Shown: in pieces, positions 1 to 48,052 of the stretch | Layout of the letters: each line of letters starts with the position of its first letter | How positions within the stretch are numbered: the first letter of the stretch is position 1 | Assembly (NCBI GenBank): GCA_964373045.1 | Contig: CAYJSI010000008.1 | Location: 1 to 63,527 of the forward strand | Origin: an uncultured bacterium | GTDB lineage: Bacteria; Omnitrophota; Omnitrophia; Omnitrophales; Aquincolibacteriaceae | Direction: 5' to 3' | Length of the DNA: 63,527 nt | Translations under genes and position numbers: made by a program | Notes under the pieces: generated by a model | Databases searched by the model: none | The model's input: the letters and a program-made list of their open reading frames with translations, nothing else | What the model was told of the DNA's origin: nothing

Positions 1-3000
1 ATTGATATCGTAGTAAGCTCGCGTCTCGGAGCGGGATAAACCAAGAATTGTTTCAAGGGCTTTTTTGTACAGGAAACGATTTGCAAAACTGGTAATCAGC
101 AGGTTTTCGGTCTTTCCGATGCTGGGTTGTGCAAGCGCTTTGGCCTTTGCTTCGATATCTTGGTACTCTGCCCTCGAAATCGTAATTTCATGAATGGCTT
201 CGGCGGGAACCGTGTTAAAACTTGCAGCTCCCGTCTGATAGAAATACCGAAAATGCTTCCTCTGGGTACCCTGGGTCCCAAGAACCTCCAGAGGGAGTGT
301 TCCCGTTTTACTCTTTTCGTCGGGTACCCCAGAAATTATAAAATCAGGAGTTTCGGTGAGGATATGTATCTTCGGAAAAATACCTTTACTCCAGTCTGGG
401 CTACTATAATTGGCGATGTAAATCATTATTCCCTGCAGCCGCTCTTGAAATTCAGGAAGGGGCATTATGGTTCGCCCCAGGAAACTGGTGATGTGATTCT
501 TGCCCTCGAATACAAAATAATGGTACTGACCGCTTGTGCCTGGCTTCTGACCGTGAAATCCTAGCGTGGGAATATTCTGAGTGCCTTGGGCTGTCACTCT
601 CGCTTCCAATGCTTTAACGCTCTCCTCTAACGAATCAACAAGATTCCCTCTCACCTCGGCGCGCTTGCCCGCCGTCTTTGTGGCGGAGGCTGGTCGGGCA
701 AGAGCTGCTGTAGAGGAGACGTCCTTTTCATTTTGGAGAATATCATCTCGGTGCCGCTTCGCGGCTGCGATAACTTCTGCGACTGTTAAACCATCACCCA
801 TAGCCCCCTCAAAAGCCGGTTCGCCTGTCAGAAGTGTTACCGATTCAATTTCTCTTTTAGCCCATCGCAAAGCAGATTTTTCCAAGTCGTCCCCATCGAC
901 GGCTGAAGCATCCAACAAGTCAGTATTGAGTTCCCTCCATCCCCAGTCTTTAAATTTCACGACCCAATAATCTCCCAGAAATGGAGAATAGGGAATGCCC
1001 TTGCCCCATAATTTTAATTTGGCCTCCACCTTCCGCCGGTGAGCGGTAGAAAGAGAATAAAATTGTTTCATCATGATTTCATTGATTTTTGAACGTACGT
1101 CTCTTTCAAAAAGAAAATAACTGGAGAGATCGACCGTTGACAAGCTTTTTTGCTCTATATCCCTTGTTAATTGAATGGGCTGTCCGGGAGCTGGTTTTTC
1201 GATCAACCTAAACTTCAGCAATGCTGTCCGTATGATCATCGCGGTCAAATATTTTGACTGCTCCTCATTTGCGCGCTTAACAAGATCCTGAAGTGAAATG
1301 GTTTGAGCATTGGGCATTGCGCGAAGTGTCTCTTTGTAGGCCTCAAAATCAGGCTGTGCTTGATCAACCCCAGGCTCCCATTCCAGAAGGGTTCTATCCG
1401 CGGTGAGAAGGTCATCAAGTGTAAGCCTGCGCGCAGGAAATGCAACCTGCGCGGCAAGCATCGGTCTATTGCGCGCCTTGAGAAGCCATTCCACCCGACT
1501 CTCTAAATCTCTTGCCCCTAAACTCTTTAGCTGCTCTTTTTCCTTAAGCCCCATGACATGGGCATATTGGTTCAAACGAGCCCGGACATTATTTCTTTCC
1601 GCTACGAACACCGCAATATCATCCAAGGCGTCTTTCAAGCTAAAATTGGCAGAATATGATTCCGTGATAAAAACAAATTGCCCCAGATGAGGAAACTCGG
1701 GCTTGAATCGTACCGGAGACTCATATTGTTCAGAGTCCTCAAGCATTTTAAGATCGAGAAGGAATGCCCGCGCGATTAGGCGCATCAGCGTTTGAACCGC
1801 GGCCCGGTTTTCCCCTGCGGCACGGACAAGATTATCCAGGGATTTAAATGAACCGTGGTTTTCCATAAAATTCTTTAAAAAATCGGGATCAGGTTCCCTA
1901 AACTCATAGTGCATTTCCCGCACGAAATAATCCTGTGCGCTATAAATTTTTTCGACGGTTATTCCCTCATGCTCAGCGAGCGCAATAAAATCTTTATACT
2001 CCCGGCGATTAACGGGTGTGTTTAAAGGCGTTAAGATTTGCCTCAATGCATTTTCAACTTGATAAGGGGGGGTTCCAAGCTGCAACTCCTCCCGATTCAG
2101 AGTTTGCGCAACCAGTTCGCCCTCATTCAACCATTCTCGCACAACTGCCTGAAGCTGAGTCCTGATGCCATTCAATTCTTGTGCAACAGCGCCTTGGATG
2201 CTGGGCTCACGAGAATAGAGCCAAGTATATTCGCCTATCAAAGCTAACTTTGCGCTTAGTCCAGAAATATGTGCCTGATACTTTGCCGGGTCTTTGCCCG
2301 GCTTCAGGAGATCCAACCCCAGATACGAACTCCATTGAAAAGATTCTCGCGGTGCTTGGGACTGACTTACAGCCGCGGCGGAACCCACATCCCCCGACAG
2401 CGCTTTAGTAGGCTCTAAATATTTTGCTTTCAAAGCATCGGCGGCGGATAAAATTTCTCGGACCTGATCACGCGTTCTCACTTCCGGGCCGTCCATGCGG
2501 CCTTTGGAATGCATCAACTCCTTTTCTGCGGCTTCCGGGTTTAACCTTCCGTCCAAGTACCCGGTAATGACAAGTTCCTCCGCCCCCTGCTCCGGCTGCA
2601 ATTGGAATTGCCAGAAAATCATGCTAGCAATGGTCGATAAAACGTGATCAGGTTTTTCTAGGGTAGCAACAAGTCTCCAGCCATCTCCTGCCGGTAAAAG
2701 CATCCAGAACACAGGCGAGTAGTTTTGATCCGCTTCCACTTTTTCCAAAGCCGCTTGGATAGAGTCGCTAATATTTTGAGGCGTCCTTGAGGCATCAAAA
2801 GACAATGTCTCTGATTTTTCGCTGGCTTGGCTGGCTTGGATCGTGAGCATCACTTTGTTGCTCTTACCCGCGTGTAGAGACGCCCAGCTTTGCTGAGAAA
2901 TAGTTTTAGCGATAAAATCCCGGACAAACCTTTTATCCGAAAAGAAAGTTGTTAGACCATCAAGTTTCAATTCCGGCGCACGTCCCACCTCGGCCTTTAG

Positions 3001-6000
3001 GCCAAGGACGGCTGCGCGGGACGCCGAGCGGTCGTCCCGTCGCATCTCGGAGCGGTTGGAAAAAGATGCGGCGGCCAACTGATTGATATATTGGTCAATC
3101 CTTATGTTAGAAAATCCAAAGGCTTTAAAAATTCTTTTCAGAATTTCTTTATTTTCATCGCTTAGACCTGCTTTGAGGGCTTCGTCATAAATCTGACCCA
3201 CCTTCATTGCGAACTGAATAAAAATTTCTCCATTTTGGGTAGGCGAAAATCTTTTCTCAAACTCTGGAAGCGAATATCCATTCGCTTCGGTAAATCCCAG
3301 CCTTGCGGCGTAACCCGAAAGCCGCGGGTTCACCACGTTGGTGAGAAAATAAGCCGTCCCTTTGAATGCCTCAAAGATGGGGACTGGTTTTTTATCGTAG
3401 AAACCAAGCGCTCCCTCTTCATATAGGTCTGCTATCATTTGAAAATAATTTTTTGCATCCCGGTTCTCATCCAGAGGTTTCGTCGAATACGATTCAACCG
3501 CTGTGATCAAATCAGCAGCGGCAATGGCAGCTCCGGCATTCAAAATGTCCCGAATCTCTCCTTCTTCCTCGATCCCAGCTTTAATCAAACGATCACGAAG
3601 GCGTTTCGTTTGCTCCTCGGAGCTTGCATTTTTCCCTTCTTCAAGAGTTGTACCGTCAGCTCTTTTCACATCCCCAAATTTTGTGAATTCGATCAAAATC
3701 TGAATGATCTCTAGTTCCCGGGGCGCCACTTTAACCCCCGCTTTATCAAAGAGCTTCTGTGCGCTAAAAGGATAGTTTTGGATCCAGGTTCGTGCACTCT
3801 CAACCAGAGCCTTCCCCGAGGGTCCTTCGACGATATCCTTAGGAGCTCCTGCATTCACCAGCATACCTTTTAAGAGTTCGTCGCTTATTTCGCCGCCAAT
3901 CCCCAACACCTCGTGGAAGGGGTACCTTTGAATATTGACGTGTTGGGTTTCCCCTTGAGAATTGACAAACGATAATTGTTCAATACCCAACAAATCAATC
4001 GTTCCGGCATCATGAAGAATAGCGGCCAACGCAGCCAACTCCAATATCCTGGGATTAGAAACAACGGAGGTTCCAGGCTTAGAAGCGCTCGGTGAAATCA
4101 AGAAACGTATACCTCCCAATGCCACTTCGGCGGAATGCTGCTCATCATGATATCTTGCAATTACCTTTTCCCGGTGATGGTCTGTTCCGCCTCCTCGGCG
4201 ACGGATATCTTGAAACGCCTTGACTATAGCGACAAACAATTTTTCAACTCGTTCGGTGGGCGCTAAATACTCACCGAGCATATTCGTTAGGGCTTGTTGT
4301 GCTCCATTAAGAGAGAGAAAATTTTCTTCTATCGTTCCATTTATCGGCAAATGAAGATCGCCTGCGAGTCGGCTAATTTCAGCTAACGCTTCTGGTGTTT
4401 GAGCCCTTTTTCTGAAGAACCCGGTGCCAGACGGAGCGGCTTCTGTTGTCGCTCCCCGCACCTCGGAGCGCTTGCCCGCCGTCTTTGTGGCGGGGGATTG
4501 GCCTTCAAGAGTTTCGATCAAATCTGAGGCATCCTTAAAAGGCTGTGACCTTTTATCTCGGATGCTGTTCCTGAATTTTTTCGCGGTAGGAAGAATGATC
4601 TGCGCTTGAGAGGGATGCTTCTTCAATATACGAAGGAGGTATCCCTGATGCTCTTTGTTAGAAGCATGGGGTAGACTCTCTAAAATATGTTCCACCAAGG
4701 TTTTCTCAGGTAAATAACGTTCCAACACGGGAACTACCAGATAAGCTTCTTTTGTACGCAAAAGAAGGATGAGATCGTTCATGGCCGGCTGGGCAAGCGC
4801 GGCATCAACTTCAAAAAAATCCATAATCGTTGTGGAATAGCCACCCTCATGCAATAGCTTGATCACAGCAGGAACGGCGGGAAACGCTTCTTTTCCATAA
4901 TTGTAAGTAAGCGCGGTCAAAGCCATTCGTCTTTGATCTGGGTCAGCATCGGATAGACTTCTAACAAGCTCTTCCAGGCTGCGGCCCGGCTTTGTCTTTC
5001 TCATCTCTTCCCAAACCACGCGGGATAAACGACTTGTGTAGCGATCAGAATAAAGCTCTTCTTTTTTACTCAGAAAAAATGTTCTTAATTCCTGAAGGGT
5101 TTGGAATCCTCGAGGAGACAATGCTTTGCTTGGAGTGGACCACACGCTTAAAGGATCTGAATAAAATCCCATGATTTCAGCCACGGGTTCGGCATCAAAA
5201 CCTTTTTCCAATAATTGACCGGCCGCTTCATGGGCTACGCGAAGGGTCTCGGGATCCGGCGGAATTTTTGCTAAGTTTTCATTGACAGCATCGAAACCGC
5301 CCATTTCATATTGAACTTCCCCCTCCGCCGACATAAAAACTTCCGCTCTTTCGACTTCGTAACCTTTCCAGGTTCCGCTCAGGATCATTTTGTCTCCCCC
5401 GGGACTTAATGAAATCTTCACATCTTCAACGCGCTGACTGAGAAGGGGTTTTAACTTCGTCGCGATCCCAAGCAAATTTCCCTCCTGATCAAATGAGACG
5501 TTTGCGTAAAGATCCCCATGGAACACGATCGCATGAGCAAATCCTAAAAACCGTGTCCTCACTTCTATGGGAAATCTATTTTTTATGGGAATAAAATAAT
5601 TTAAAAATTGTTCCAGGCCCTCAGAAGCTCTCAAGTCCCCGTAGGTCACGGTTCCATCCTTATTTTTTCTTCCTTTGAAACCCGCCGCCTGTAAGGACGC
5701 GAGCCATTTACTTTTTACGCGCTGAGTATCTTCTTCAGCTTCCCTGTAACCTAAAAACAATGCCCGGGAGTAAAGCGCCCAGGCCCGAAGTAAATGCTTC
5801 TCTGCTTCAAACTTTTGAGCCTGAAGAAGTGCTTCTCTTGCTTCTGGAATTTCCTGAACACCCTGCTCAAGGGCTCTTTGATAAACCTGCAGAAAAAACT
5901 CCGCACCGATTCCGTGGTCAAACATGACACGCAATATTGAAGGGAGGTCGGACGGTGTCATTCCAGTTGCTCCTGCCAGCAGCATCATGTTCTTTTTTCC

Positions 6001-9000
6001 GCCAGGAAGTTCTACAAGATGCTGCTTAATAAAATCCCCGGCTGCGTGAGCTTCGGCTTCTAAATATTCATTTTGAGGATAAAGATTTCTTACAATCTGC
6101 GCCGCAAACTGAATTTGTTCATCAGGATTTCTCACCTCATCCAAATCCTCTCCCCTGGGAGATATGGGCGCTTCTCTTTTGGCTTGAAGGACTTGTTTTT
6201 GTTCATTGTTCAGTTGGAGCCCCAACTGATCACTCAAAAATAAAATCCGCTCGATGGAGAAAAATTGGGCGGTAGGGGCGAGAAGGCTAATGTCTTTGAT
6301 TAATCCTTTAGCATTTTTAATTTCATTCTCGGCTTGTTCTTTTTGAACATTGGGGCGAGCGGCGCGCTTTATTTTGCGCTCAACACTTTCGAGAAGTTTT
6401 ACGAGAAGCTGAGACTGAACAGCGGAAGGAATGCCGGTTCGAACGGCTTGAAAAGCTTCGGCCCCGAGCGGATCTTTCGCTTTAAGTTTTGCATCAATCC
6501 ATCTTAAAAATTGGCCCAATTTCACGTCTGCTTCACCCGTGTTCTCTTCAGCTGATTTCATGATTAAAACGATTCCTCGATTAATCAATTCGGAGCTCTT
6601 GCGGCGTTCTTTAACCGTTTCGCGAGCCGATTGAATACTCTCAAACAGAATCCCTCGCGTGGGACGTGAAACTTTATTCAGAAGCTCTGCAACGGGGGAC
6701 AAATCAGTTATAATTTCTGCCTTATTTGCTTCATTCACCTCGACATAAGTCAAAAAGGAATCTAATTTCTTGCCCAAGGCCTGCTGCAACTGGTCGATTT
6801 CATCCTGGCCAAAGACACCATCCATTATTTGTCCAATTTTATCTGCGCTGTAACCCAGAGATTCTTTTGATAATTTCTCTCGAATTGCTTCCTGATCACG
6901 ATCCAATGAGAGCTCAAGTAAAAGCTCAAGCCATTTTCTTCTAACCTTCTCTTCAATATCTGTGCGAACCCCTGCTGTTTCAGAATCAATTCCAAGAAAT
7001 CCTTCAATTTGATGAGTGTAAGGATTAATAAACCCGCGAACAATTTTTAGTTTTGATTTTTCATTTTGAAGCGGAGGAACATACTCTGCGCTTTGATGAA
7101 GGGCATCTTTGAACTCCTCTGAAAGGAATTGATCCTTATTTTGTTTTATGGCTTCATCGCGCTGAGCTTTTAATTGTTGATTTGCTCTTTCGATGCTTTC
7201 TTGGAGGATTGCCTTAAGAGGCTCCGGTACGTCAGTGTTGAATGTCGGGGCTGAATAGAGATAGCGGTCATCATCTGTTCCCTCAATATTTCTTTGTACC
7301 TTGATCATGAAGCGAACACCTTTCGACATTCCCTCTTCCAATGTCGCGGGATCTGGTTCTGTGTTCAACACATTTCGAATGGTTCCCGCGTCATCAATGA
7401 GAATAGATATTTTTCTATAACCGCCCTTAACTTTCTGCCGACCCAAAATTTCTAGAGTTTGGCTTGATATGAGCGTTCCTTGATTGTCAACTTTAATCTT
7501 TTCAACCGCGACAGCAGTTTCTCGCTTTTTTGCTTCTAATACCTTTTTAGAGGCAAGTAGATCCGCTAGGGCGGCTACAACCTTATTGATTGAAATCCAC
7601 CATGCCGCCAATACAGGATTTTGCGTATTTCCCGCACTTCGCATCTCCGAACGTGGGATCGCGCGACCTCCCACCACTGCTCGTTTGTCAGAGACGGGAG
7701 AAGATTGTTCTCTTGTGTCGCGAAAATTTTCTCCGACCTGATGTAACTTGTCTAAGATTCTCGTGATTCGCGGAGAAGGTTCCGGATAAACCCATTCAAT
7801 GAGCTCGATCGAATGAAGAATAATATTTTCCAAGATCGCGCTTCGCGGTGGAGGAAGACTCCTTGAACTTGAGCCTGGGCCTAATCCTTCTGATCTTTTT
7901 CCCAAGTCCAAGAATCCCAGCAACATACTTTTTGGTTCGACATTCGCTGCTCGATATTGCTGAAAAGCTGTCTGAAGCATCGGGCTAAGACCTACGAATA
8001 AGCCAAGCGCCCCCACAAAAGCTCCGACCCAAGCGGCAACTTCTAGCGACCTGGTTGAAATAAGAAAAATTCCCGCCTGGATTTCCATCAAAAGGATGGC
8101 CTTCCAAGCAACGCCTCTGACTCTAGGATCTCGGTTGAGCAAACCCATAAAAATACTGAGCAGAGATTGCTTCTCAGATTTCCCCCTCACCTCGGCGCGT
8201 CCTGCACGGGCCTCGGCACGGGATTTCCCGGGCCCGTCAAATTCACGAGGAAGGGTGATTTCTCTTGTGTGGCGGAAGAAACCGTTTAATTGCCATTCAA
8301 GCCGGATAATTTGAACGTCAATGGCATCCGGTATTCGGGGGATGATGGAGTGTAGAAAATCCCCAAGACCGTTCGTGTCGCTGACCCTCCGATTTTTGCG
8401 GGGGTTGAGCCACTGATTGATCGCACCTATAATTCCCCGCTCAGGCGCTGCATATAGATCAAGACGCCTGCGTTCGAGTCCTTGCACTCGAAGTGACTTG
8501 TCTTGCGGTAAAATTCCATCATCTTGCACCCTCGTCTCGGCTCGGGATCGCATTCCAGCAAGCTGGGTTGAAACAGGAGCGGTAGGAGGTTGGCGGGATT
8601 CAGCTTGGGCCGCAGCCGTGGCCCGGTTTGCAAGGTCTATCGTCGGATCAAGTTTTCCCAGAGTTACCTTCACTCCGCCAATCGTTTCCTCAACGACCGT
8701 TTGTCCCGGGGTTGCTCTGGGTGAGTTAAGATATGCTTTCTTAAAATTTACAGCTGCGACATTGCCATTACCATCCTGCCAAAGTTCAAAACTGTACGCA
8801 TCGTTGTCTCCGGGCAATTCAATCGTCACCCGGTAAGCATTTCTATTTTGGGACTTCATAATATTGAGTGCTGCACTACGATCCTTAAAGTAGGCGGCAC
8901 TTAAAAGATGATTTAAAATTTTTGCCAATTCTGTGGGATCTTTAACCTTAGATTGGATGATATCCACAACGGCGCTGAGGGCACTTTTAATATCCTTTTC

Positions 9001-10713
9001 TCCATTGACACCAAGCGTTTTCATTGCGGCGATTGACTGTAGCCTATTCACCATTTCAATCGTAGCGAGGTCGAAGAGGGTGGGCTGCTCCTCCATCATG
9101 GTGGCGAGGTAGCCTGAGTTCTCGGCCTTCTCGGTGAGGCGCGGCGTTAAGATACCGTAATTGATCCCCTTTTCGCGGAAGATGTCCGAGAGGCCTTCGG
9201 TGTGGAAACCGCCTGTGACGAGGACCGCCTTCTCGGCCTTGCGTGAACCCATCTCGGCCTGGAGCTTTTCATAGAAGGCCATTTCACGCTGCTGCGCATA
9301 ATCATAAAAGAGGAAGGCCTTTTGAAAGACCTCGATCATTTTGGAGTCGGCCTCGCTTGGCGGCGCCTGCGATCGCTCCCCGGACGCACCCTCCTGCAGC
9401 ATCTCGAGCTTCATTTCATCTTCAATGGCCGAGGCGCGGGTGACGAGCGCCTGGGGCTCAATCCAGTCCTTGCGGTAGAAGGCGCGCGCCCAGTCTTTGC
9501 GGGAGAGCTCAAGATGCAGGAGCTGGCGCGAGAGCTCGAGATCGCGGAAGAGCTCGAGTAAATTTTTCTCACGCTCTCTTAAGGCGAGCTCGTTTAGGAT
9601 CCTCTCAAAAAGCCGCTCGATTTCGTCAAAAAGCGATTTTGATTCAAGCTCGCTTTGCAAGATGAGATAACCCGCATAAAGACTGAAGGCGGGGTAATCG
9701 TGAAAATAAAATCCCTTGGGCCCTGCTTCATCAGCGAGGCGCTCAAGGAGATAGCGCGGCAGATCGTTTTTGGCGCTCTCCCCCTTTTTAAGGCTCACCA
9801 CGTTGATGCGCTTATCTTCCAAGCGCTCCACATCGGAAATAAGCTGCTTGGAGATCCCCTTGGATTTTAAGAATTCGATTAATTGACCGCGTTCTTGGAC
9901 GGCCTTTTCGCGGTTAAGCTCCGGCTCCATCGATTGCAGGACCAGAAGCCGTGTGATCTGGGGCCACTCGATTTGTGAAAAAAGGCTTTCGAGATCAAGC
10001 CCCAGGGTCTTTTTGGCGTCGGCGGCCAGGTTTTTGACAAAGGGGAGAAAATCGCGGTGCCCGCTGTGAAATTTCCTCCACTCTGAAAGAAGGCGGCGCG
10101 TGTCGTGCGATAAAAATCGGGACGAGAGCCGCTCGAGGCGTGCCTCCAGACCTGAAAGAAATTGATCCGTTTCGGATTTGGCGCGATAGACCTCGCGGAA
10201 AAGCTTGTAATCTTCGCGGTAAAGCTCAGGATTTTCGATGCCAATCGCCTCGATCGTGTTCGGGGCATCCATGAGGAAGTATTCCACTCCTGTCAGTTCG
10301 CCCCGCTTGGCAAGGTAATCGGCCAGTTCAAGGTTTCGCTCTTTTGTGGGGAAAAGCTTTAAAAGTTCAGGATTCAGCTTTTCCGCCGCGCCTTCCACAA
10401 ACAGAAGATTAAATCCGTATTTTTCGTGCAGGTAGGCGAGAAGTTTTTTGATTTGAACTTGGGCTTCGTAATTGCCGTGGGCGTTTTGAACGTGCAGGAC
10501 TAACTGAGGATCGGCCTTGGGCGGGGCCTCATAAATTTCTTCGATGGACGCAAGCTCGGGAGGGATATCGATTTGAAGGAAACCGGGCGTCTCCGGCTCT
10601 CCAGTAAGCGACATAACGCCCGCCGGTGAGGCGTAAGAAACTTGAGAGACGAGGAAAAAGAAAAGGGTCCCCGCCGAAACAATTTTCTTGAGTTTTGTAC
10701 TCTCGTTTGGCAT
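1..10713 (-). CDS. Giant secreted/membrane-associated multidomain protein; N-terminus complete, C-terminus beyond left window edge (>=3571 aa)
   Basis: Manual reverse-complement translation from ATG 10713-10711 gives unbroken sense codons in the frame that ends exactly at nt 1. None of the listed minus-strand fragments lies in this frame. The ORF is absent from the track because it has no stop in the window. N-terminus MPNESTKLKKIVSAGTLFFFLVSQVSYA/SP looks like a signal peptide. Hydrophobic hairpin at about nt 8110-7975. Tentative modules: ChaN/TraB/Tiki-like (nt ~10500-9190), HEAT-like repeats (nt ~4990-4700), H..HD motif HSAEV...LHDAG (nt ~4200-3990). Confidence 0.8.
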   Translation of the reverse strand, partial: MPNESTKLKKIVSAGTLFFFLVSQVSYASPAGVMSLTGEPETPGFLQIDIPPELASIEEIYEAPPKADPQLVLHVQNAHGNYEAQVQIKKLLAYLHEKYGFNLLFVEGAAEKLNPELLKLFPTKERNLELADYLAKRGELTGVEYFLMDAPNTIEAIGIENPELYREDYKLFREVYRAKSETDQFLSGLEARLERLSSRFLSHDTRRLLSEWRKFHSGHRDFLPFVKNLAADAKKTLGLDLESLFSQIEWPQITRLLVLQSMEPELNREKAVQERGQLIEFLKSKGISKQLISDVERLEDKRINVVSLKKGESAKNDLPRYLLERLADEAGPKGFYFHDYPAFSLYAGYLILQSELESKSLFDEIERLFERILNELALREREKNLLELFRDLELSRQLLHLELSRKDWARAFYRKDWIEPQALVTRASAIEDEMKLEMLQEGASGERSQAPPSEADSKMIEVFQKAFLFYDYAQQREMAFYEKLQAEMGSRKAEKAVLVTGGFHTEGLSDIFREKGINYGILTPRLTEKAENSGYLATMMEEQPTLFDLATIEMVNRLQSIAAMKTLGVNGEKDIKSALSAVVDIIQSKVKDPTELAKILNHLLSAAYFKDRSAALNIMKSQNRNAYRVTIELPGDNDAYSFELWQDGNGNVAAVNFKKAYLNSPRATPGQTVVEETIGGVKVTLGKLDPTIDLANRATAAAQAESRQPPTAPVSTQLAGMRSRAETRVQDDGILPQDKSLRVQGLERRRLDLYAAPERGIIGAINQWLNPRKNRRVSDTNGLGDFLHSIIPRIPDAIDVQIIRLEWQLNGFFRHTREITLPREFDGPGKSRAEARAGRAEVRGKSEKQSLLSIFMGLLNRDPRVRGVAWKAILLMEIQAGIFLISTRSLEVAAWVGAFVGALGLFVGLSPMLQTAFQQYRAANVEPKSMLLGFLDLGKRSEGLGPGSSSRSLPPPRSAILENIILHSIELIEWVYPEPSPRITRILDKLHQVGENFRDTREQSSPVSDKRAVVGGRAIPRSEMRSAGNTQNPVLAAWWISINKVVAALADLLASKKVLEAKKRETAVAVEKIKVDNQGTLISSQTLEILGRQKVKGGYRKISILIDDAGTIRNVLNTEPDPATLEEGMSKGVRFMIKVQRNIEGTDDDRYLYSAPTFNTDVPEPLKAILQESIERANQQLKAQRDEAIKQNKDQFLSEEFKDALHQSAEYVPPLQNEKSKLKIVRGFINPYTHQIEGFLGIDSETAGVRTDIEEKVRRKWLELLLELSLDRDQEAIREKLSKESLGYSADKIGQIMDGVFGQDEIDQLQQALGKKLDSFLTYVEVNEANKAEIITDLSPVAELLNKVSRPTRGILFESIQSARETVKERRKSSELINRGIVLIMKSAEENTGEADVKLGQFLRWIDAKLKAKDPLGAEAFQAVRTGIPSAVQSQLLVKLLESVERKIKRAARPNVQKEQAENEIKNAKGLIKDISLLAPTAQFFSIERILFLSDQLGLQLNNEQKQVLQAKREAPISPRGEDLDEVRNPDEQIQFAAQIVRNLYPQNEYLEAEAHAAGDFIKQHLVELPGGKKNMMLLAGATGMTPSDLPSILRVMFDHGIGAEFFLQVYQRALEQGVQEIPEAREALLQAQKFEAEKHLLRAWALYSRALFLGYREAEEDTQRVKSKWLASLQAAGFKGRKNKDGTVTYGDLRASEGLEQFLNYFIPIKNRFPIEVRTRFLGFAHAIVFHGDLYANVSFDQEGNLLGIATKLKPLLSQRVEDVKISLSPGGDKMILSGTWKGYEVERAEVFMSAEGEVQYEMGGFDAVNENLAKIPPDPETLRVAHEAAGQLLEKGFDAEPVAEIMGFYSDPLSVWSTPSKALSPRGFQTLQELRTFFLSKKEELYSDRYTSRLSRVVWEEMRKTKPGRSLEELVRSLSDADPDQRRMALTALTYNYGKEAFPAVPAVIKLLHEGGYSTTIMDFFEVDAALAQPAMNDLILLLRTKEAYLVVPVLERYLPEKTLVEHILESLPHASNKEHQGYLLRILKKHPSQAQIILPTAKKFRNSIRDKRSQPFKDASDLIETLEGQSPATKTAGKRSEVRGATTEAAPSGTGFFRKRAQTPEALAEISRLAGDLHLPINGTIEENFLSLNGAQQALTNMLGEYLAPTERVEKLFVAIVKAFQDIRRRGGGTDHHREKVIARYHDEQHSAEVALGGIRFLISPSASKPGTSVVSNPRILELAALAAILHDAGTIDLLGIEQLSFVNSQGETQHVNIQRYPFHEVLGIGGEISDELLKGMLVNAGAPKDIVEGPSGKALVESARTWIQNYPFSAQKLFDKAGVKVAPRELEIIQILIEFTKFGDVKRADGTTLEEGKNASSEEQTKRLRDRLIKAGIEEEGEIRDILNAGAAIAAADLITAVESYSTKPLDENRDAKNYFQMIADLYEEGALGFYDKKPVPIFEAFKGTAYFLTNVVNPRLSGYAARLGFTEANGYSLPEFEKRFSPTQNGEIFIQFAMKVGQIYDEALKAGLSDENKEILKRIFKAFGFSNIRIDQYINQLAAASFSNRSEMRRDDRSASRAAVLGLKAEVGRAPELKLDGLTTFFSDKRFVRDFIAKTISQQSWASLHAGKSNKVMLTIQASQASEKSETLSFDASRTPQNISDSIQAALEKVEADQNYSPVFWMLLPAGDGWRLVATLEKPDHVLSTIASMIFWQFQLQPEQGAEELVITGYLDGRLNPEAAEKELMHSKGRMDGPEVRTRDQVREILSAADALKAKYLEPTKALSGDVGSAAAVSQSQAPRESFQWSSYLGLDLLKPGKDPAKYQAHISGLSAKLALIGEYTWLYSREPSIQGAVAQELNGIRTQLQAVVREWLNEGELVAQTLNREELQLGTPPYQVENALRQILTPLNTPVNRREYKDFIALAEHEGITVEKIYSAQDYFVREMHYEFREPDPDFLKNFMENHGSFKSLDNLVRAAGENRAAVQTLMRLIARAFLLDLKMLEDSEQYESPVRFKPEFPHLGQFVFITESYSANFSLKDALDDIAVFVAERNNVRARLNQYAHVMGLKEKEQLKSLGARDLESRVEWLLKARNRPMLAAQVAFPARRLTLDDLLTADRTLLEWEPGVDQAQPDFEAYKETLRAMPNAQTISLQDLVKRANEEQSKYLTAMIIRTALLKFRLIEKPAPGQPIQLTRDIEQKSLSTVDLSSYFLFERDVRSKINEIMMKQFYSLSTAHRRKVEAKLKLWGKGIPYSPFLGDYWVVKFKDWGWRELNTDLLDASAVDGDDLEKSALRWAKREIESVTLLTGEPAFEGAMGDGLTVAEVIAAAKRHRDDILQNEKDVSSTAALARPASATKTAGKRAEVRGNLVDSLEESVKALEARVTAQGTQNIPTLGFHGQKPGTSGQYHYFVFEGKNHITSFLGRTIMPLPEFQERLQGIMIYIANYSSPDWSKGIFPKIHILTETPDFIISGVPDEKSKTGTLPLEVLGTQGTQRKHFRYFYQTGAASFNTVPAEAIHEITISRAEYQDIEAKAKALAQPSIGKTENLLITSFANRFLYKKALETILGLSRSETRAYYDIN
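652..686. repeat. 35-nt intragenic repeat copy A (encodes ..ATKTAGKRAEV..)
   Basis: cacctcggCgcgcttgcccgccgtctttgtggcgg differs at one base from nt 4459-4493. Both copies lie in the giant ORF in the same frame. Confidence 0.85.
4459..4493. repeat. 35-nt intragenic repeat copy B (encodes ..ATKTAGKRSEV..)
   Basis: cacctcggAgcgcttgcccgccgtctttgtggcgg; 34/35 identical to nt 652-686. Confidence 0.85.
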
Positions 10714-10802
10714 AAGACTTTTGAAATTGTTTTATATACATTTAAAAGATACACGCTTGTTTGGAGAATTACAAGGGAAGGAAGTAAATGATATAACTTG
10801 CT

Positions 10803-43783: not shown

Positions 43784-44144
43784 TCTGGCGCTCCTTTGGG
43801 TGACCACCTTGTTTCTTTCAGGCTGTATCGGATTTAATTTTCCTCAGCCCTTTTCCTGGAAGCCGGTGGAGATGCTCAATGGCGGGGCGCAGATCGGCCG
43901 CGACCAGCTCGCCAATCGATCCCTCGCCGCGAATCACATCGTGCGTCTTGATGGGCTAAGCGGAAACGAGGTGCTCTCGATTCTGGGGCAGCCTCAAAGC
44001 GTTCAAATCGTGGAGCCGCAGGTTTCTGAGGACTGGCATTTTATCTACTACAAGCGCTACAAAACGGCACCCCGAACCGGTGAAGGGGCCTTCATCGTAA
44101 GGTTTTATCAGAGCAAAGTTATCGATGTCGTCAAAACGAGTTGA
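43755..44144 (+). CDS. Small lipoprotein, BamE/SmpA-OmlA-like (tentative)
   Basis: [24 protein letters not shown] lipobox; [15 protein letters not shown]-type fold signature. Confidence 0.6.
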
Positions 44145-44680
44145 CCCTCTCGCCTAAGAAATACTTCTTTTTCGCCGCTTCTTTCAGCTACACCGCGTTT
44201 CTTTTCTTTCTCGTTTTCTATGCCCTCCCCGTGGTCAGTTTTCTCCAAAGGATGGGCATTTATACCTTCCTCATTCCTGTTATCGGTCTTAGTTTTGCCG
44301 TAATCGTCTTCGCATCACTGTTCCAGGCACGCTCTCATGCTTCGAGATCCTTCGCCTCCGCCTTGATCTCATTGGCTGCAATTTATCTCTTCCTATTTTT
44401 TTATGTAAAAGATCCCATCCAAAAAATTCATTTAGGACTTTATGCCCTGCTTGCCCTGATTTATTTCAGAACGCTTGGGGAATATAACTTTGCCTTCTCT
44501 TCGCGCCTGGGCGGCACCTTGATCTTGGGTTCTTTGGTGGGCATCCTCGATGAGGGGTTTCAAAAATATATCCCGGGCCGTTTTTTTGAGTGGTTGGATC
44601 TCATGCTGAATGTTGCCGCCGTGGCGATGGGCAGTCTTTACGGCTGGATCCGCCATTCACTTAAAAACCCCATTTCTTAA
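44141..44680 (+). CDS. VanZ-like family membrane protein
   Basis: Four TM segments; DEGFQKYIPGRFFEWLDLMLNVAAVAMG; TTG start overlaps the upstream stop. Confidence 0.8.
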   Translation: MTLSPKKYFFFAASFSYTAFLFFLVFYALPVVSFLQRMGIYTFLIPVIGLSFAVIVFASLFQARSHASRSFASALISLAAIYLFLFFYVKDPIQKIHLGLYALLALIYFRTLGEYNFAFSSRLGGTLILGSLVGILDEGFQKYIPGRFFEWLDLMLNVAAVAMGSLYGWIRHSLKNPIS

Positions 44681-45710
44681 GTTCCCCCGCAATGGCTTCA
44701 GCCGCCGCCTCGTGGCCGAAACGATTCCAATGGTCATCAATTCGAAAGTACGGCAATTTCCCTGTCTTGAGCCAAAATTCCTTCAAGGGACCTGCTAAAT
44801 TCAAAAAATCGATTTCATAGTCAAGGCAATATTGACGCAAGCGCTCAACTTCCGGCTTCACTGCTTCACCACGCCTTTCAAGCCAATCGCCTTTAATCGG
44901 AAAATAGACGAGGACTAACCTCGTCCGCCCTCGCGTGATTTCCCGCAGCTGATCGAGTACTCCCGTGTCCAAGCTGGGAAGGCTCGAATCATCTTGCGCC
45001 ATCAAATTTTTTGAAAATTCCTTACGGCGATGGAAATTTTCCAGGGTGAAGTGAATTCCTCGCTCTAGAACGGTATAGACATAAGAGACGCGGTAAAGAG
45101 AAAAACGAATTTTTTCCTTCCACGAATAGGTGTCCGGTGATTTTGGCCAGTACATCCGTCCCCTTTTCCAATAAACCTTACGGTCGATATCCGGGGTCGG
45201 CCATTCTGACAAAAAAAATAATATGATGTCGGGTTGATATTTCATGCCGTCTTGCTCCAGGCGGGCCATCTGCTGGTAGGGCGAATAACCCGAAACACCC
45301 GTATTGAGCACCTCGGCGCCTTGAAGCCACTTATTTTCAAGAAGCTCCGTCACAGTTTGATCAATTTGAACACCCCATCCAAAGATGTGAGAATCGCCCA
45401 GCGCCAGAATCCTTTTTACGCCGGAAGGCTTTTCGATCGAATAATCACGATCCCTTAAATGGTCTCGATTAATCCGAACGCGTGTAATAAATTCCCGGTT
45501 CCAAAAAATTTGCTCCGCACCGTCCCTGGGAACATAAAGAATCCGTGGATCTTCATGCGGCTCAGAGCAGGTCTGCTGAATAATATTTCGATTATTAAAA
45601 TAGAGCCAATGAGGCGGATTCCATCTTAAGTAAATTTCGCCCATCAGAAGACCTGAGGCGAGAGAAACCAAGAAGGTCAAAAAAGGGCGGCTACTAAGAG
45701 CCCGGAACAC
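44661..45710 (-). CDS. SGNH/GDSL hydrolase family protein with N-terminal membrane anchor
   Basis: RILALGDSHIFGWGV block I. The track ORF runs to 45920, which would overlap the upstream gene by 227 nt. GTG 45710 gives a 17-nt overlap and a TM segment at the N-terminus. Confidence 0.75.
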   Translation of the reverse strand: MFRALSSRPFLTFLVSLASGLLMGEIYLRWNPPHWLYFNNRNIIQQTCSEPHEDPRILYVPRDGAEQIFWNREFITRVRINRDHLRDRDYSIEKPSGVKRILALGDSHIFGWGVQIDQTVTELLENKWLQGAEVLNTGVSGYSPYQQMARLEQDGMKYQPDIILFFLSEWPTPDIDRKVYWKRGRMYWPKSPDTYSWKEKIRFSLYRVSYVYTVLERGIHFTLENFHRRKEFSKNLMAQDDSSLPSLDTGVLDQLREITRGRTRLVLVYFPIKGDWLERRGEAVKPEVERLRQYCLDYEIDFLNLAGPLKEFWLKTGKLPYFRIDDHWNRFGHEAAAEAIAGELKKWGF

Positions 45711-47733: not shown

Positions 47734-47752
47734 ACGCAGAATTCGATATAAT
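47724..47752 (+). promoter_or_regulatory. Candidate sigma70-type promoter of the RiPP-like operon (TTGAAG-17-TATAAT)
   Basis: -35 at 47724-47729 and -10 at 47747-47752, which is only 9 nt before ATG 47762. The -35 lies inside the divergent GT-C gene's first codons. Confidence 0.35.
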
Positions 47753-47761
47753 TTACCTGCT

Positions 47762-48052
47762 ATGTTCGACAGTGTCTATGCAAAAAATAGGGATTACGTT
47801 TACCGCGAAGTCGCGGGCGAATATCTCCTCATCCCCATCCGCCAAAAATTGAACGAGGCCAACAAACTTTACGTCTTGAACAAAACGGGCTCGGAGGTCT
47901 GGAATCGCCTTGATGGCAAACGCCCTTTAAGTTCCATTGTCTCCGAACTTGGAGAAATGTTCGAGGTCAGCTCCGAAACACTTCAGCAGGACATCCAGAC
48001 ACTCCTTCAAGACCTGCTCAGCATCCAAGCCGCGCAAGAAACCGCGTCGTGA
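47762..48052 (+). CDS. PqqD-family protein (RiPP recognition element) no. 1
   Basis: YREVAGEYLLIPI..YVLNKTGSEVWNRLDGKRPLSSIVSELGEMFEVSSETLQQDIQTLLQDL. The track ORF starts at 47717. Confidence 0.85.
   Translation: MFDSVYAKNRDYVYREVAGEYLLIPIRQKLNEANKLYVLNKTGSEVWNRLDGKRPLSSIVSELGEMFEVSSETLQQDIQTLLQDLLSIQAAQETAS

What the first reader, a model, noticed from the sequence alone, without database searches (positions are those of the whole stretch)
19..8544. Recurrent R-[SA]-E-x-R pentapeptide in low-complexity linkers of the giant protein
Eight copies of R-[SA]-E-[VMTA]-R occur in the giant ORF:
- RAETR at nt 8530-8544
- RAEAR at nt 8206-8220
- RAEVR at nt 8185-8199
- RSEMR at nt 7639-7653
- RSEVR at nt 4456-4470
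- RSEMR at nt 3040-3054
- RAEVR at nt 649-663
- RSETR at nt 19-33

These correspond to roughly aa 724, 832, 839, 1021, 2082, 2554, 3351 and 3561. Each sits in a Gly/Ala/Ser/Pro/Thr-rich stretch between more structured-looking blocks (for example PATKTAGKRSEVRGATTEAAPSG and GPGKSRAEARAGRAEVRGKSEK). This is far more often than chance would give for a 5-residue pattern. The placement suggests module boundaries. Possible roles are a processing site for a dedicated protease (polyprotein-like maturation) or a docking or modification site.
Basis: partly seen in the sequence, partly recalled or inferred. Interest (0 to 1): 0.65.

Follow-up and report, generated by a model that had tools for sequence, protein, structure and literature searches.

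The report
Module-boundary pentapeptide in Omnitrophota long proteins
The repeated Arg-Ser/Ala-Glu-x-Arg pentapeptide is real and strongly selected, it marks the start of each module in a large undescribed family of long modular proteins of the uncultured phylum Omnitrophota, and it is the first concrete candidate for where such proteins are cut or handled.

Summary
All eight R[SA]E[VMTA]R copies lie at the stated coordinates in one minus-strand ORF. That ORF starts at nt 10713 and is at least 3571 aa, cut by the window edge. Composition predicts 0.045 copies.

The other roughly 53 kb of the window holds none. The codons differ between copies, so selection acts on the protein.

The ORF is the positional orthologue of 1000-1250 aa proteins of Candidatus Omnitrophota, in the same uvrD-adjacent position. 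In 80 genomic relatives plus the window (166,132 aa), R[SA]ExR occurs 327 times against 8.7 expected. Near-miss patterns stay at background.

Family architecture:
- a signal peptide and a conserved N-domain of about 650 aa;
- 0 to 13 or more unrelated, mostly orphan modules, each tending to begin with the motif;
- a conserved C-domain of about 310 aa that ends in -SA or -AA.

Known domains (REC, HEAT) start 5-14 residues after a motif. Co-occurring sequence variants switch sequence within 5 nt of one motif.

The reading as module boundaries is supported. Cleavage by a dedicated protease is my preferred mechanism (about 0.4), but it is untested. I found no description of the motif in the papers I searched.

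The parts
1..10713 (-). Long ORF of at least 3571 aa, truncated by the window edge. It is an expanded member of an Omnitrophota-specific modular protein family.
   Evidence: Open frame and ATG start. No Pfam or NCBIfam match. Same uvrD-adjacent position as the 923-1125 aa family proteins of relatives, whose loci share the gcvT-H-P-lplA-uvrD order (window genes). Contigs of an independent public run tile it with no differences.
10630..10713 (-). N-terminal signal peptide or membrane anchor (aa 1-28, MPNESTKLKKIVSAGTLFFFLVSQVSYA).
   Evidence: Read from the sequence. Helix 3-28 in the AlphaFold2 model. Equivalent hydrophobic N-termini in the homologues.
8731..10584 (-). Conserved N-terminal domain (about aa 44-661) that defines the family. 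Invariant residues are H79, Q85, E107, G108, E160, E364, R476 and G501-G502-F503-H504. It may be a hydrolase of the erythromycin-esterase/ChaN/Tiki type, on weak evidence.
   Evidence: 55 homologues at 27-60% identity over the first roughly 600 aa only. Alignment A1 gives the invariant columns. AlphaFold2 pLDDT is mostly above 90 up to aa 661. Foldseek finds nothing significant; the highest match probability (0.41) is erythromycin esterase EreC. Pfam gives only sub-threshold ChaN/Tiki and DUF5694 hits.
8434..8724 (-). Predicted disordered linker after the N-domain (aa 664-760), containing motif copy 1.
   Evidence: pLDDT 27-45 over aa 664-760 in a model built from a 40-sequence alignment.
8530..8544 (-). 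Motif copy 1, RAETR (aa 724).
   Evidence: The closest homologue P0001 has RAETR at aa 691, inside the collinear BLAST match P0001 3-705 to window 6-738.
8206..8220 (-). Motif copy 2, RAEAR (aa 832). Co-occurring sequence variants switch sequence here.
   Evidence: Assembly-graph branches at nt 8219 and 8223 in run X1, the first also in run X4.
8185..8199 (-). Motif copy 3, RAEVR (aa 839), 28 residues upstream of a pair of hydrophobic helices.
7969..8115 (-). Two adjacent hydrophobic segments (aa 867-887 and 889-915), a likely membrane hairpin at the start of the module that follows motif copies 2 and 3.
   Evidence: Kyte-Doolittle scan. Relatives show the same pattern of a motif followed by a membrane- or signal-peptide-like segment.
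7639..7653 (-). Motif copy 4, RSEMR (aa 1021).
4456..4470 (-). Motif copy 5, RSEVR (aa 2082), in the linker PATKTAGKRSEVRGATTEAAPSG.
   Evidence: 99.9th percentile of local G/A/S/P/T content.
3040..3054 (-). Motif copy 6, RSEMR (aa 2554).
649..663 (-). Motif copy 7, RAEVR (aa 3351). It opens the only variable-region module of the window that matched any of the 80 fetched family members.
   Evidence: It aligns with KRSESR of the L032 protein.
19..33 (-). Motif copy 8, RSETR (aa 3561).
43..711 (-). Module aa 3335-3557, bounded by motif copies 7 and 8. It is 38% identical to aa 792-1014 of the L032 protein, where it is the first module after the N-domain and lies between motifs at aa 810 and 1041.
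647..704 (.). Direct DNA repeat, copy A (58 nt, 83% identical to copy B). It encodes the linker and motif ...ATKTAGKRAEVRG.
   Evidence: family D1, spacing 3807 nt, in frame.
4454..4511 (.). Direct DNA repeat, copy B. It encodes ...ATKTAGKRSEVRG.

Best explanation
R-[S>A]-E-x-R is a short linear motif under strong selection at the protein level. It marks the N-terminal edge of each module in an Omnitrophota-specific family of 'beads-on-a-string' proteins.

The family layout is:
- a signal peptide or membrane anchor;
- a conserved N-domain of about 650 aa;
- a variable string of unrelated, fast-evolving cargo modules, including REC, HEAT, methyltransferase-like, membrane-hairpin and mostly orphan segments;
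- a conserved C-domain of about 310 aa ending in -SA or -AA.

The window's ORF is the uvrD-adjacent member of this family. Its variable middle has expanded from roughly 100-150 aa in the short relatives to more than 2900 aa. This much is shown.

The mechanism I think most likely is inferred, not shown. The motif would be the recognition site of a dedicated endopeptidase encoded in the same genome. That enzyme would probably be Arg-specific, reading Glu at P3 and cutting after the second Arg. The long ORF would then be a bacterial polyprotein whose modules are released, with the free N-terminus a few residues ahead of each domain.

The enzyme could be a separate protein. Less likely, it is the family's own conserved N-domain, which has invariant His and Glu residues.

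Because the junctions lie between independent units, they are also the places where modules get exchanged by recombination.
For: Shown:
1. The window has 8 copies against 0.045 expected, and none elsewhere in the window.
2. Across the family there are 327 copies against 8.7 expected in 166,132 aa. Near-miss patterns stay at background: R[SA]D.R 7, K[SA]E.K 4, R[SA]E.K 4, K[SA]E.R 2, R[TG]E.R 3. Flanking positions carry under 0.4 bit each, so the five residues themselves are selected, and Lys and Asp are not accepted in place of Arg and Glu.
3. Codons differ between the window's copies. The first Arg uses CGA, CGT or CGC; the last uses AGG, CGT, CGA, CGG or AGA.
4. Nearly all copies (4 exceptions among about 320) lie after the N-domain. 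The first usually lies at aa 600-800, and one lies 302-324 aa before the C-terminus in 15 complete long members.
5. Domain edges coincide with motifs:
   - L046: REC at aa 1740-1861, between motifs at 1722 and 1867.
   - L008: REC starts at 3229 after the motif at 3219-3223.
   - L008: HEAT repeats start at 1343 after the motif at 1334-1338.
6. Starts of BLAST matches between members fall within 10 aa of a motif in 32% of cases against 7% at random.
7. A homologous module carries the motif at the aligned position although it occupies a different ordinal place in the two proteins.
8. Copy 1 lies in a segment with pLDDT below 50, right after a confidently folded domain.
9. The preferences at positions 2 and 4 are shared by paralogues of one genome:
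   - RSESR in 17 of 20 copies in assembly CAZDVO01.
   - RAE[KRN]R in 12 of 13 copies in assembly DAOPYQ01.
   This is as expected if one factor per genome reads the motif.
10. Other proteins of the same genomes lack it, including a neighbouring ORF of at least 3204 aa with no copy.

Favouring cleavage specifically (inference):
- Many modules in relatives begin with the motif followed by a signal-peptide-like or Tat-like segment, as if each were its own exported protein.
- Modules are unrelated to each other and include normally stand-alone domains such as REC.
- An E-x-R ending resembles the sites of Arg-specific proteases such as factor Xa (IEGR). This last point is from my own knowledge.
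Against: - No cleavage product has been seen. No proteomic data were available here.
- No protease domain was detected in any of the seven long members scanned against Pfam.
- The link of the N-domain to the Tiki/erythromycin-esterase hydrolases is weak. The best relevant Foldseek E-value is 0.4 at probability 0.41, and the Pfam hits are below threshold.
- In the AlphaFold2 model the motif at aa 724 does not dock onto the N-domain.
- About half of the short members (about 1000 aa) have no copy, so the motif is not needed for the core function of the N- and C-domains.
- Position +1 after the motif is only weakly conserved (Gly 16%).
- Genome-specific variants could also come from recombination between paralogues rather than from co-evolution with a reader.
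Confidence: 0.42

Rival explanations
1. The motif is an uncleaved recognition or docking site. A common partner would bind each inter-module junction. Candidates are a chaperone, a translocation or assembly factor, or the family's own N- or C-domain. For example, the alternating R-x-E-x-R could form one face of a short beta strand. The partner would then handle, fold, export or bundle the long chain module by module while the chain stays intact.
For: All the evidence for a specific reader applies equally: strict Arg, Glu and Arg, near-miss patterns at background, and genome-specific positions 2 and 4. The copy modelled lies in an accessible disordered stretch. Many members have membrane segments between modules, which fits one membrane-threaded chain. 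Published work on the largest Omnitrophota ORFs likewise reports many predicted membrane helices and leaves cleavage open.
Against: No partner is identified. The AlphaFold2 model shows no docking of the motif onto the N-domain. Five residues with free flanks is short for a stable binding site. Signal-peptide-like starts of modules fit separate products better.
Confidence: 0.25
2. The motif is a recombination junction, a cassette handle. It would persist because modules are duplicated and swapped at these points, so that linker and motif spread by duplication and gene conversion. It would have no biochemical reader.
For: Three co-occurring forms differ exactly at copy 2. One has the same upstream sequence but a different downstream one (...GKS-RAEVR-TEDEPG...); it is seen in run X1 and in run X4, where window nt 7500-8185 has zero depth. 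Another has a different upstream sequence (...LHDLLKASTT-S-RAEAR...) joined to the same downstream one. The breakpoints are at nt 8219 and 8223. A 58-nt, 83% identical DNA repeat covers copies 5 and 7, and shorter DNA similarity links other copies. L033 has perfect tandem module duplicates in step with the motif. Paralogues within one genome share motif variants.
Against: Only five residues are conserved, their codons vary, and the flanks carry almost no information. Fifteen degenerate bases are too few for homologous recombination. Passive spread does not explain the exclusion of Lys and Asp, or the retention of the motif between proteins that are only 38% identical. Other branch points in the same reads (nt 3916, 4176, 6034, 9433, 9694, 10347, 10490) are not at motifs. 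Recombination at junctions is better seen as a consequence of modularity than as its cause.
Confidence: 0.13
3. The motif is a structural or topogenic element of each module. It could be a charged N-terminal cap or salt-bridge clip. Alternatively it could be a charged cluster that sets the membrane orientation of the hydrophobic segment that often follows.
For: The motif sits 5-14 residues ahead of domain starts. It is often followed by hydrophobic helices.
Against: It precedes unrelated folds such as REC, HEAT and orphan modules, many with no hydrophobic segment. A structural cap common to unrelated folds is unlikely. Orientation rules accept Lys as well as Arg and do not require Glu, yet Lys-containing variants are at background. 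The one confidently modelled copy is disordered.
Confidence: 0.07
4. The motif is a chance or compositional artefact of an Arg-, Glu- and Ser-rich low-complexity protein.
For: The pattern was defined after looking at the sequence. Some copies lie in low-complexity linkers.
Against: 0.045 copies expected against 8 observed, and none of 20,000 shuffles exceeded 3. Independent replication gives 327 against 8.7, with near-miss patterns at background. The motif is absent from other genes.
Confidence: 0.01

Closest known systems
Viral polyprotein cleavage sites, for example the flavivirus NS2B-NS3 sites on the cytosolic side of internal signal sequences
   Same: A short consensus recurs at junctions between unrelated functional units within one long ORF. 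It contains basic residues, and in relatives it often lies just upstream of an internal signal-peptide-like segment.
   Different: This is a cellular, chromosomal gene of a bacterium. The consensus is different (R-[SA]-E-x-R). No cognate protease has been identified, and cleavage has not been shown.
Demarcation motifs of polymorphic toxin systems: VENN in CdiA and PxxxxDPxGL in Rhs (from my own knowledge)
   Same: A tiny conserved motif separates a conserved N-terminal part from hypervariable cargo that is exchanged by recombination. Population variants here switch sequence exactly at the motif.
   Different: The motif is repeated up to 13 times per protein instead of once. A conserved C-domain follows the variable part. 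No toxin or immunity module was detected by Pfam. The sequence is unrelated.
Endoproteolytic motif S/T-X-F|X-D/E in the P97/P102 adhesin families of Mycoplasma hyopneumoniae, and the gingipain/HagA polyproteins of Porphyromonas gingivalis cut at Arg or Lys (from my own knowledge)
   Same: Large bacterial surface proteins of host-dependent bacteria are cut at short motifs in disordered stretches, giving several products from one ORF.
   Different: Those cleavages are experimentally shown. The motifs and lineages differ, and those proteins have far fewer and related modules.
Giant ORFs of Omnitrophota ('Archaeovorins' and multi-enzyme long proteins; West-Roberts 2023 bioRxiv 10.1101/2023.11.21.568195; bioRxiv 10.64898/2026.06.07.730766)
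   Same: Same phylum. The proteins are long, have many membrane helices, and consist of poorly conserved concatenations of unrelated domains that include REC, HEAT and HD-type modules. Whether they are cleaved is stated to be an open question.
   Different: Those papers treat ORFs of 10,000 aa or more (the preprint) or over 30,000 aa (West-Roberts). They describe neither this N-/C-domain family nor any boundary motif. West-Roberts et al. state that information about cleavage points is absent. I could not test whether the very largest proteins carry R[SA]ExR.

Membership tests
Omnitrophota N-domain / C-domain modular family (defined here; not in Pfam or NCBIfam) | Conserved N-terminal domain of about 600-650 aa with the invariant residues H79, Q85, E107, G108, E160, E364, R476 and G501-G502-F503-H504 | tested here: met
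   27-60% identity to 55 proteins over aa 1 to about 600. Invariant columns from alignment A1. 361 genomic relatives; the 80 loci kept are Omnitrophota MAGs or unnamed 'uncultured bacterium' MAGs.
Omnitrophota N-domain / C-domain modular family (defined here; not in Pfam or NCBIfam) | Conserved C-terminal domain of about 310 aa ending in -[SA]A | not testable with these tools
   The ORF leaves the window at nt 1. The window DNA was not found in the genome or metagenome contig collections, and the read-derived contig of run X1 also ends at nt 1. Relatives have the domain.
Omnitrophota N-domain / C-domain modular family (defined here; not in Pfam or NCBIfam) | Conserved genomic position downstream of gcvT-H-P1-P2-lplA-uvrD | tested here: met
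   Window genes match the order in L003, L004, L005 and L087.
Polyprotein with site-specific proteolytic processing | A recurrent consensus at the junctions between functional units | tested here: met
Polyprotein with site-specific proteolytic processing | An identified cognate protease, in cis or in trans | tested here: inconclusive
   No peptidase Pfam domain in seven long members. The N-domain resembles erythromycin esterase/ChaN/Tiki only weakly. M48 and MA_2 peptidase genes lie 2-4 kb downstream in four syntenic loci, but that may be plain synteny.
Polyprotein with site-specific proteolytic processing | Mature products with termini at the sites | not testable with these tools
   This needs proteomics or N-terminomics.
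CdiA (VENN) or Rhs (DPxGL) polymorphic toxins | The VENN or PxxxxDPxGL motif, a C-terminal toxin and a downstream immunity gene | tested here: not met
   The motif differs and occurs many times. No toxin, Rhs, YD or haemagglutinin-repeat Pfam hit was found. A conserved non-toxin C-domain follows the variable part.
Tiki / TraB / ChaN / erythromycin-esterase superfamily (for the N-domain only) | An alpha/beta core with two His-containing motifs (GxxH type) plus conserved Glu, and a significant sequence or fold match | tested here: inconclusive
   H-G-x-x-E and T-G-G-F-H motifs are invariant. The best relevant Foldseek matches are EreC 6xcq (E 0.4, probability 0.41, TM-score 0.22 per target), 6xcs, 3b55 and 2rad. 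Pfam ChaN scores E 0.023 in 1 of 40 members and DUF5694 in 2 of 40. A profile search of PDB sequences found nothing.
Twin-arginine or Sec signal n-region | S/T-R-R-x-F-L-K, or a basic n-region always followed by a hydrophobic core | tested here: not met
   The two Arg are separated by three residues with an obligatory Glu. REC and HEAT domains follow the motif directly with no hydrophobic core. Only some copies precede hydrophobic segments.
Archaeovorin-type giant proteins (West-Roberts 2023) | Over 30,000 aa with glycosyl transferase, glycosyl hydrolase, methylase, NUDIX and SecA-like domains | tested here: not met
   At least 3571 aa are visible, with no Pfam domain. The full length is unknown. 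The phylum and the general character (long, modular, with membrane helices) are shared.

The most novel reading that the evidence does not exclude
Long and possibly giant Omnitrophota ORFs of this family would be true bacterial polyproteins, in effect an operon within one ORF. R-[SA]-E-x-R would be the cut site of a dedicated Arg-specific protease that co-evolves with it genome by genome. That protease could be the family's own Tiki/erythromycin-esterase-like N-domain. Each released module, many with their own signal peptide, would then act as a separate protein. Other Omnitrophota lineages would use other site sequences, such as [KR][KR]SP[SA]G seen in P0056.
Probability: 0.35. Interest if true: 0.88.

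Novelty: new variant of a known kind. Interest (0 to 1): 0.72.

Why it matters
Omnitrophota carry the longest known prokaryotic ORFs. Whether these act as single chains or are cut into many proteins is an explicitly open question. West-Roberts et al. [quoted passage not shown]

A five-residue motif occurs about 40-fold more often than expected, sits at domain starts and varies by genome. This has three practical consequences:
- It gives a rule for cutting such proteins into units for structure prediction and annotation.
- It gives a direct proteomic test, namely new protein termini at the motif.
- It provides a handle for finding the enzyme or partner that reads the motif.

It also defines a widespread family that is in neither Pfam nor NCBIfam. 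The family has 361 genomic relatives, often with several paralogues per genome. Its variable middle appears to be a site where new, mostly orphan protein modules accumulate and are shuffled.

Tried and rejected
Searches that led nowhere:
- The homology search with the whole 3571-aa protein timed out.
- An exact search for the window's first 50 nt found nothing in the genome or metagenome contig collections, so the missing C-terminus could not be recovered.
- An exact look-up of the UvrD product failed, probably because of a different called start. The gcvT look-up gave only short contigs.
- Variable-region modules are essentially orphans:
  - aa 2082-3350 and aa 3335-3571 had no hit in the word-indexed search;
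  - aa 1022-2081 had only 2 hits among 1.84 billion representatives.
- Foldseek against the PDB with the N-domain model gave no significant match. A profile search of PDB sequences and a C-domain search gave nothing.
- Single-sequence AlphaFold2 of aa 2050-2620 gave pLDDT 35 and is not usable. It shows only that both motifs fall in gaps between predicted helices.
- The script machine was lost. The family-wide codon-usage test of the motif (Glu GAG against GAA, Arg codon spread) was therefore not completed. Only the window's eight copies were examined.

Ideas considered and rejected:
- A DNA- or RNA-level signal such as an internal Shine-Dalgarno sequence plus start codon. Position 4 is GTG or ATG in 5 of the 8 window copies, but across the family it is often Ala, Ser, Thr or Lys, and the codons vary.
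- A Tat or Sec n-region, because REC and HEAT domains follow the motif directly.
- A phosphorylation site on the Ser, because Ala replaces it in 19% of copies.
- A compositional artefact.
- No tRNA gene and no Rfam family was found in the window.

Full report
**1. The observation**

The first 10.7 kb of the window is one open frame on the minus strand (nt 10731 to 1). Its first ATG is at nt 10713, and it runs off the left edge, so the protein has at least 3571 aa.

The protein's own composition predicts 0.045 copies. None of 20,000 shuffles gave more than 3.

Every R.E.R in the protein belongs to the set. No other open frame of 100 aa or more in the remaining roughly 53 kb of the window contains R[SA]E.R.

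The eight copies use different Arg codons, so the constraint acts on the protein rather than the DNA. Six of the eight sit in locally Gly/Ala/Ser/Pro/Thr-rich sequence. The copies at aa 2554 and 3561 do not.

**2. What the protein is**

Pfam and NCBIfam find nothing in it. The neighbouring genes are ordinary bacterial housekeeping genes: uvrD, a lipoate ligase, gcvP, gcvT, ftsA, ftsQ, ddl and the mur genes (gcvH).

The first 760 aa have 55 homologues. Those that carry a phylum name are nearly all annotated Candidatus Omnitrophota/Omnitrophica, and most of the complete ones are 1000-1250 aa long. Only the first roughly 600 aa are homologous.

In relatives the gene order gcvT-H-P1-P2-lplA-(small ORF)-uvrD-[this family] is conserved. 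The window's long ORF is therefore the positional orthologue of a protein of about 1000 aa whose middle has expanded.

A scan of one genome per species found 361 relatives. The 80 loci kept are Omnitrophota MAGs or unnamed 'uncultured bacterium' MAGs, often with several paralogues per genome. Some lie in tandem.

Their ORFs range from about 900 aa to more than 4000 aa. Many are cut by the 10-kb flank limit or by contig ends.

**3. The motif is a hallmark of the family**

The 55 homologues already carry RSE[LVAT]R, always after aa 500.

In the 80 genomic loci plus the window (166,132 aa), R[SA]E.R occurs 327 times against 8.7 expected, with up to 13 copies per protein.

Near-miss patterns stay at background:

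| Pattern | Count |
|---|---|
| R[SA]D.R | 7 |
| K[SA]E.K | 4 |
| R[SA]E.K | 4 |
| K[SA]E.R | 2 |
| R[TG]E.R | 3 |

Position 2 is Ser in 81% and Ala in 19% of copies. Position 4 is variable (Val, Ala, Met, Ser, Thr and others). Flanking positions carry under 0.4 bit each.

Genes next to family members do not carry the motif. A neighbouring ORF of at least 3204 aa in one genome has no copy on its strand. The enrichment is therefore specific to the family, not a property of the genome or of long ORFs in general.

**4. The motif marks module starts**

- *Fold prediction.* AlphaFold2, with a 40-sequence alignment, folds aa 1-661 confidently. It leaves aa 664-760 below pLDDT 50, and this stretch includes RAETR at aa 724.
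- *Closest homologue.* P0001 has RAETR at aa 691, inside the collinear match P0001 3-705 to window 6-738.
- *Known domains in relatives:*
  - In L046 a receiver (REC) domain at aa 1740-1861 lies between motifs at 1722 and 1867.
  - In L008 a REC domain starts 6 residues after a motif.
  - In L008 a HEAT array starts about 5 residues after another motif.
- *All-against-all BLAST outside the N-domain.* Match starts fall within 10 aa of a motif in 32% of cases against 7% at random. Match ends show no such bias. The motif therefore belongs to the start of the following unit.
- *C-domain boundary.* In 15 complete long members a motif lies 302-324 aa before the C-terminus. This is at the start of the conserved C-domain, which ends in -SA or -AA.
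- *A shuffled module.* The only variable-region module of the window that matched any of the 80 fetched family members is aa 3335-3557, between copies 7 and 8.
  - It is 38% identical to aa 792-1014 of the L032 protein.
  - There it is the first module after the N-domain, lying between motifs at aa 810 and 1041.
  - KTAGKRAEVRG aligns with RTVGKRSESR.
- *Tandem duplicates.* L033 contains perfect tandem module duplicates in step with the motif.

**5. What the modules are**

Most are orphans. Window aa 1022-2081 has 2 hits among 1.84 billion representative proteins. Window aa 2082-3350 and 3335-3571 have none in the word-indexed search.

Four long relatives have no Pfam hit at all.

In relatives many modules begin with the motif followed by a segment that looks like a Sec or Tat signal peptide or a membrane helix. 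Examples are RSELRSNWWQKIGLALMGLALSLNVARAQG and RSELRVSEREILQPVTRRTFFAASLGLLASALTVEAGE in L046.

In the window, copies 2 and 3 precede a pair of hydrophobic helices at aa 867-915.

**6. Evidence for a reader and for recombination**

Paralogues of one genome share preferences at positions 2 and 4:
- RSESR in 17 of 20 copies in the three paralogues of assembly CAZDVO01;
- RAE[KRN]R in 12 of 13 copies in the two paralogues of assembly DAOPYQ01.

This fits one reading factor per genome, or concerted evolution of the paralogues.

Contigs of public run X1 tile the whole ORF without a difference. The assembly graph branches exactly at copy 2:
- One alternative keeps the upstream sequence and continues ...GKS-RAEVR-TEDEPG.... 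It is also seen in the independent run X4, where window nt 7500-8185 has zero depth.
- Another joins a different upstream sequence (...LHDLLKASTT-S-RAEAR...) to the window's downstream part.
- The breakpoints are at nt 8219 and 8223. Depths are 19.5 for nt 2787-8214, 15 for the junction piece at 8185-8248, and 37 for 8219-8470.

Other branch points in the gene are not at motifs, so this is a single clear case and not a rule.

A 58-nt, 83% identical direct repeat covers copies 5 and 7.

**7. Mechanism**

*Shown.* The motif is a five-residue signal under strong protein-level selection. It is specific to one family, it sits at module starts, and its detail varies by genome.

*Inferred.* Something reads it. 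I favour a dedicated endopeptidase acting on a polyprotein, at about 0.4, for three reasons:
- The units are unrelated to each other.
- They are often equipped with their own export signals.
- They include domains that normally stand alone.

An E-x-R ending also suits Arg-specific proteases; this point is from my own knowledge.

*An uncleaved docking or handling motif* is the main rival, at about 0.25.

*A pure recombination handle* is less likely, at about 0.13. Only 15 degenerate bases are conserved, and Lys and Asp are excluded.

*A structural or topogenic role* is unlikely, because unrelated folds follow the motif and Lys is not accepted.

*The N-domain* has invariant His and Glu residues. 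It weakly recalls erythromycin esterase, ChaN and Tiki hydrolases. It is a speculative candidate for the protease. The model shows no docking of the motif onto it.

*M48 and MA_2 peptidase genes* lie 2-4 kb downstream in four syntenic loci. This may be no more than conserved gene order.

**8. Comparison with what is known**

A full-text search for the six pentapeptide variants found only chance hits in unrelated papers.

I searched three papers on long Omnitrophota proteins for terms such as motif, cleavage and polyprotein, and read their sections on giant proteins. None mentions such a motif or this family. One of them states that cleavage points are unknown.

The closest analogues are:
- viral polyprotein cleavage sites;
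- the VENN and DPxGL demarcation motifs of polymorphic toxins;
- the cleavage motifs of mycoplasma adhesins.

Each shares the logic. None shares the sequence, the repetition or the context.

**9. Verdict**

The biochemical role is open, but it can now be tested directly.

The finding reaches well beyond the window. It defines a widespread, unannotated Omnitrophota protein family and gives a simple rule for cutting its members into units.

Noticed in passing
P0056 (NCBI MFC1590711.1, partial 3049-aa protein of Candidatus Omnitrophota): This unrelated long Omnitrophota protein has no R[SA]ExR. It carries a different recurrent hexapeptide, [KR][KR]SP[SA]G (KRKSPSGDE, GRRSPSGAE, SRKSPSGAV, RRKSPSGGS, KRRSPAGKE), in linker-like stretches. 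Other lineages or families may use other boundary motifs.
   Followed up: partly
C-termini of family members (P0001-P0052; L006-L085): Most complete members end in a small-residue tail...[ST/A]-x-[SA]-A (for example ATSVSA, ATAKAA, RLAASA). This could be a C-terminal recognition signal in its own right.
   Followed up: partly
window 8185-8248 (runs X1, X4): Three co-occurring sequence forms branch within 5 nt at the start of motif copy 2. Read depth rises from 19.5 in the variable part (nt 2787-8214) to 26-37 across nt 8219-8861 and 28 from nt 8911 on, so strains or paralogues share the N-side of the gene but not the modules.
   Followed up: partly
window 1-468: The read-derived contig of run X1 ends exactly at window nt 1. 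The source assembly probably breaks inside the gene, perhaps at a repeat or a point of strain variation.
   Followed up: no
window 1-8000 against the rest of the window: The variable part of the long ORF has lower G+C (0.44-0.48) than the N-domain and the neighbouring genes (0.51-0.54). The motif-bearing linkers are locally GC-rich.
   Followed up: no
L015 1-9783 and 9953-16663; L086 1-8004 and 8001-11774: Long ORFs occur in tandem. In L015 an upstream ORF of at least 3245 aa carries 9 or more motifs and ends in ...VVAFSA, directly before a 2236-aa family member. In L086 an ORF of at least 3204 aa with a weak FHA hit and no motif overlaps the family gene's start by 4 nt.
   Followed up: partly
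L033 ORF 9986-19288 (aa about 976-1400): There are two identical 97-aa units (RAEVRLTERDRE...) followed by two nearly identical 112-aa units (R[AS]E[IV]RVKAADLV...). Each unit starts with the motif, indicating recent module duplication.
   Followed up: no
L003, L005, L087, L088 downstream of the family gene: The downstream block is conserved: acyltransferase, Exo_endo_phos, (an alpha/beta hydrolase in L003, L004 and L005), Peptidase_M48, Peptidase_MA_2, BatD, and a TPR/SH3 protein. The two peptidases are untested candidates for the motif reader.
   Followed up: no
window 44000-48000: A stretch of lower G+C (0.465-0.477) with a strong AT skew (+0.25 at 46-48 kb), around a 679-aa minus-strand ORF at 45694-47733.
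   Followed up: no
window 1-63527: No tRNA gene and no Rfam family at gathering score in the whole 63.5 kb. This includes the lack of a glycine riboswitch call upstream of the gcv genes.
   Followed up: no
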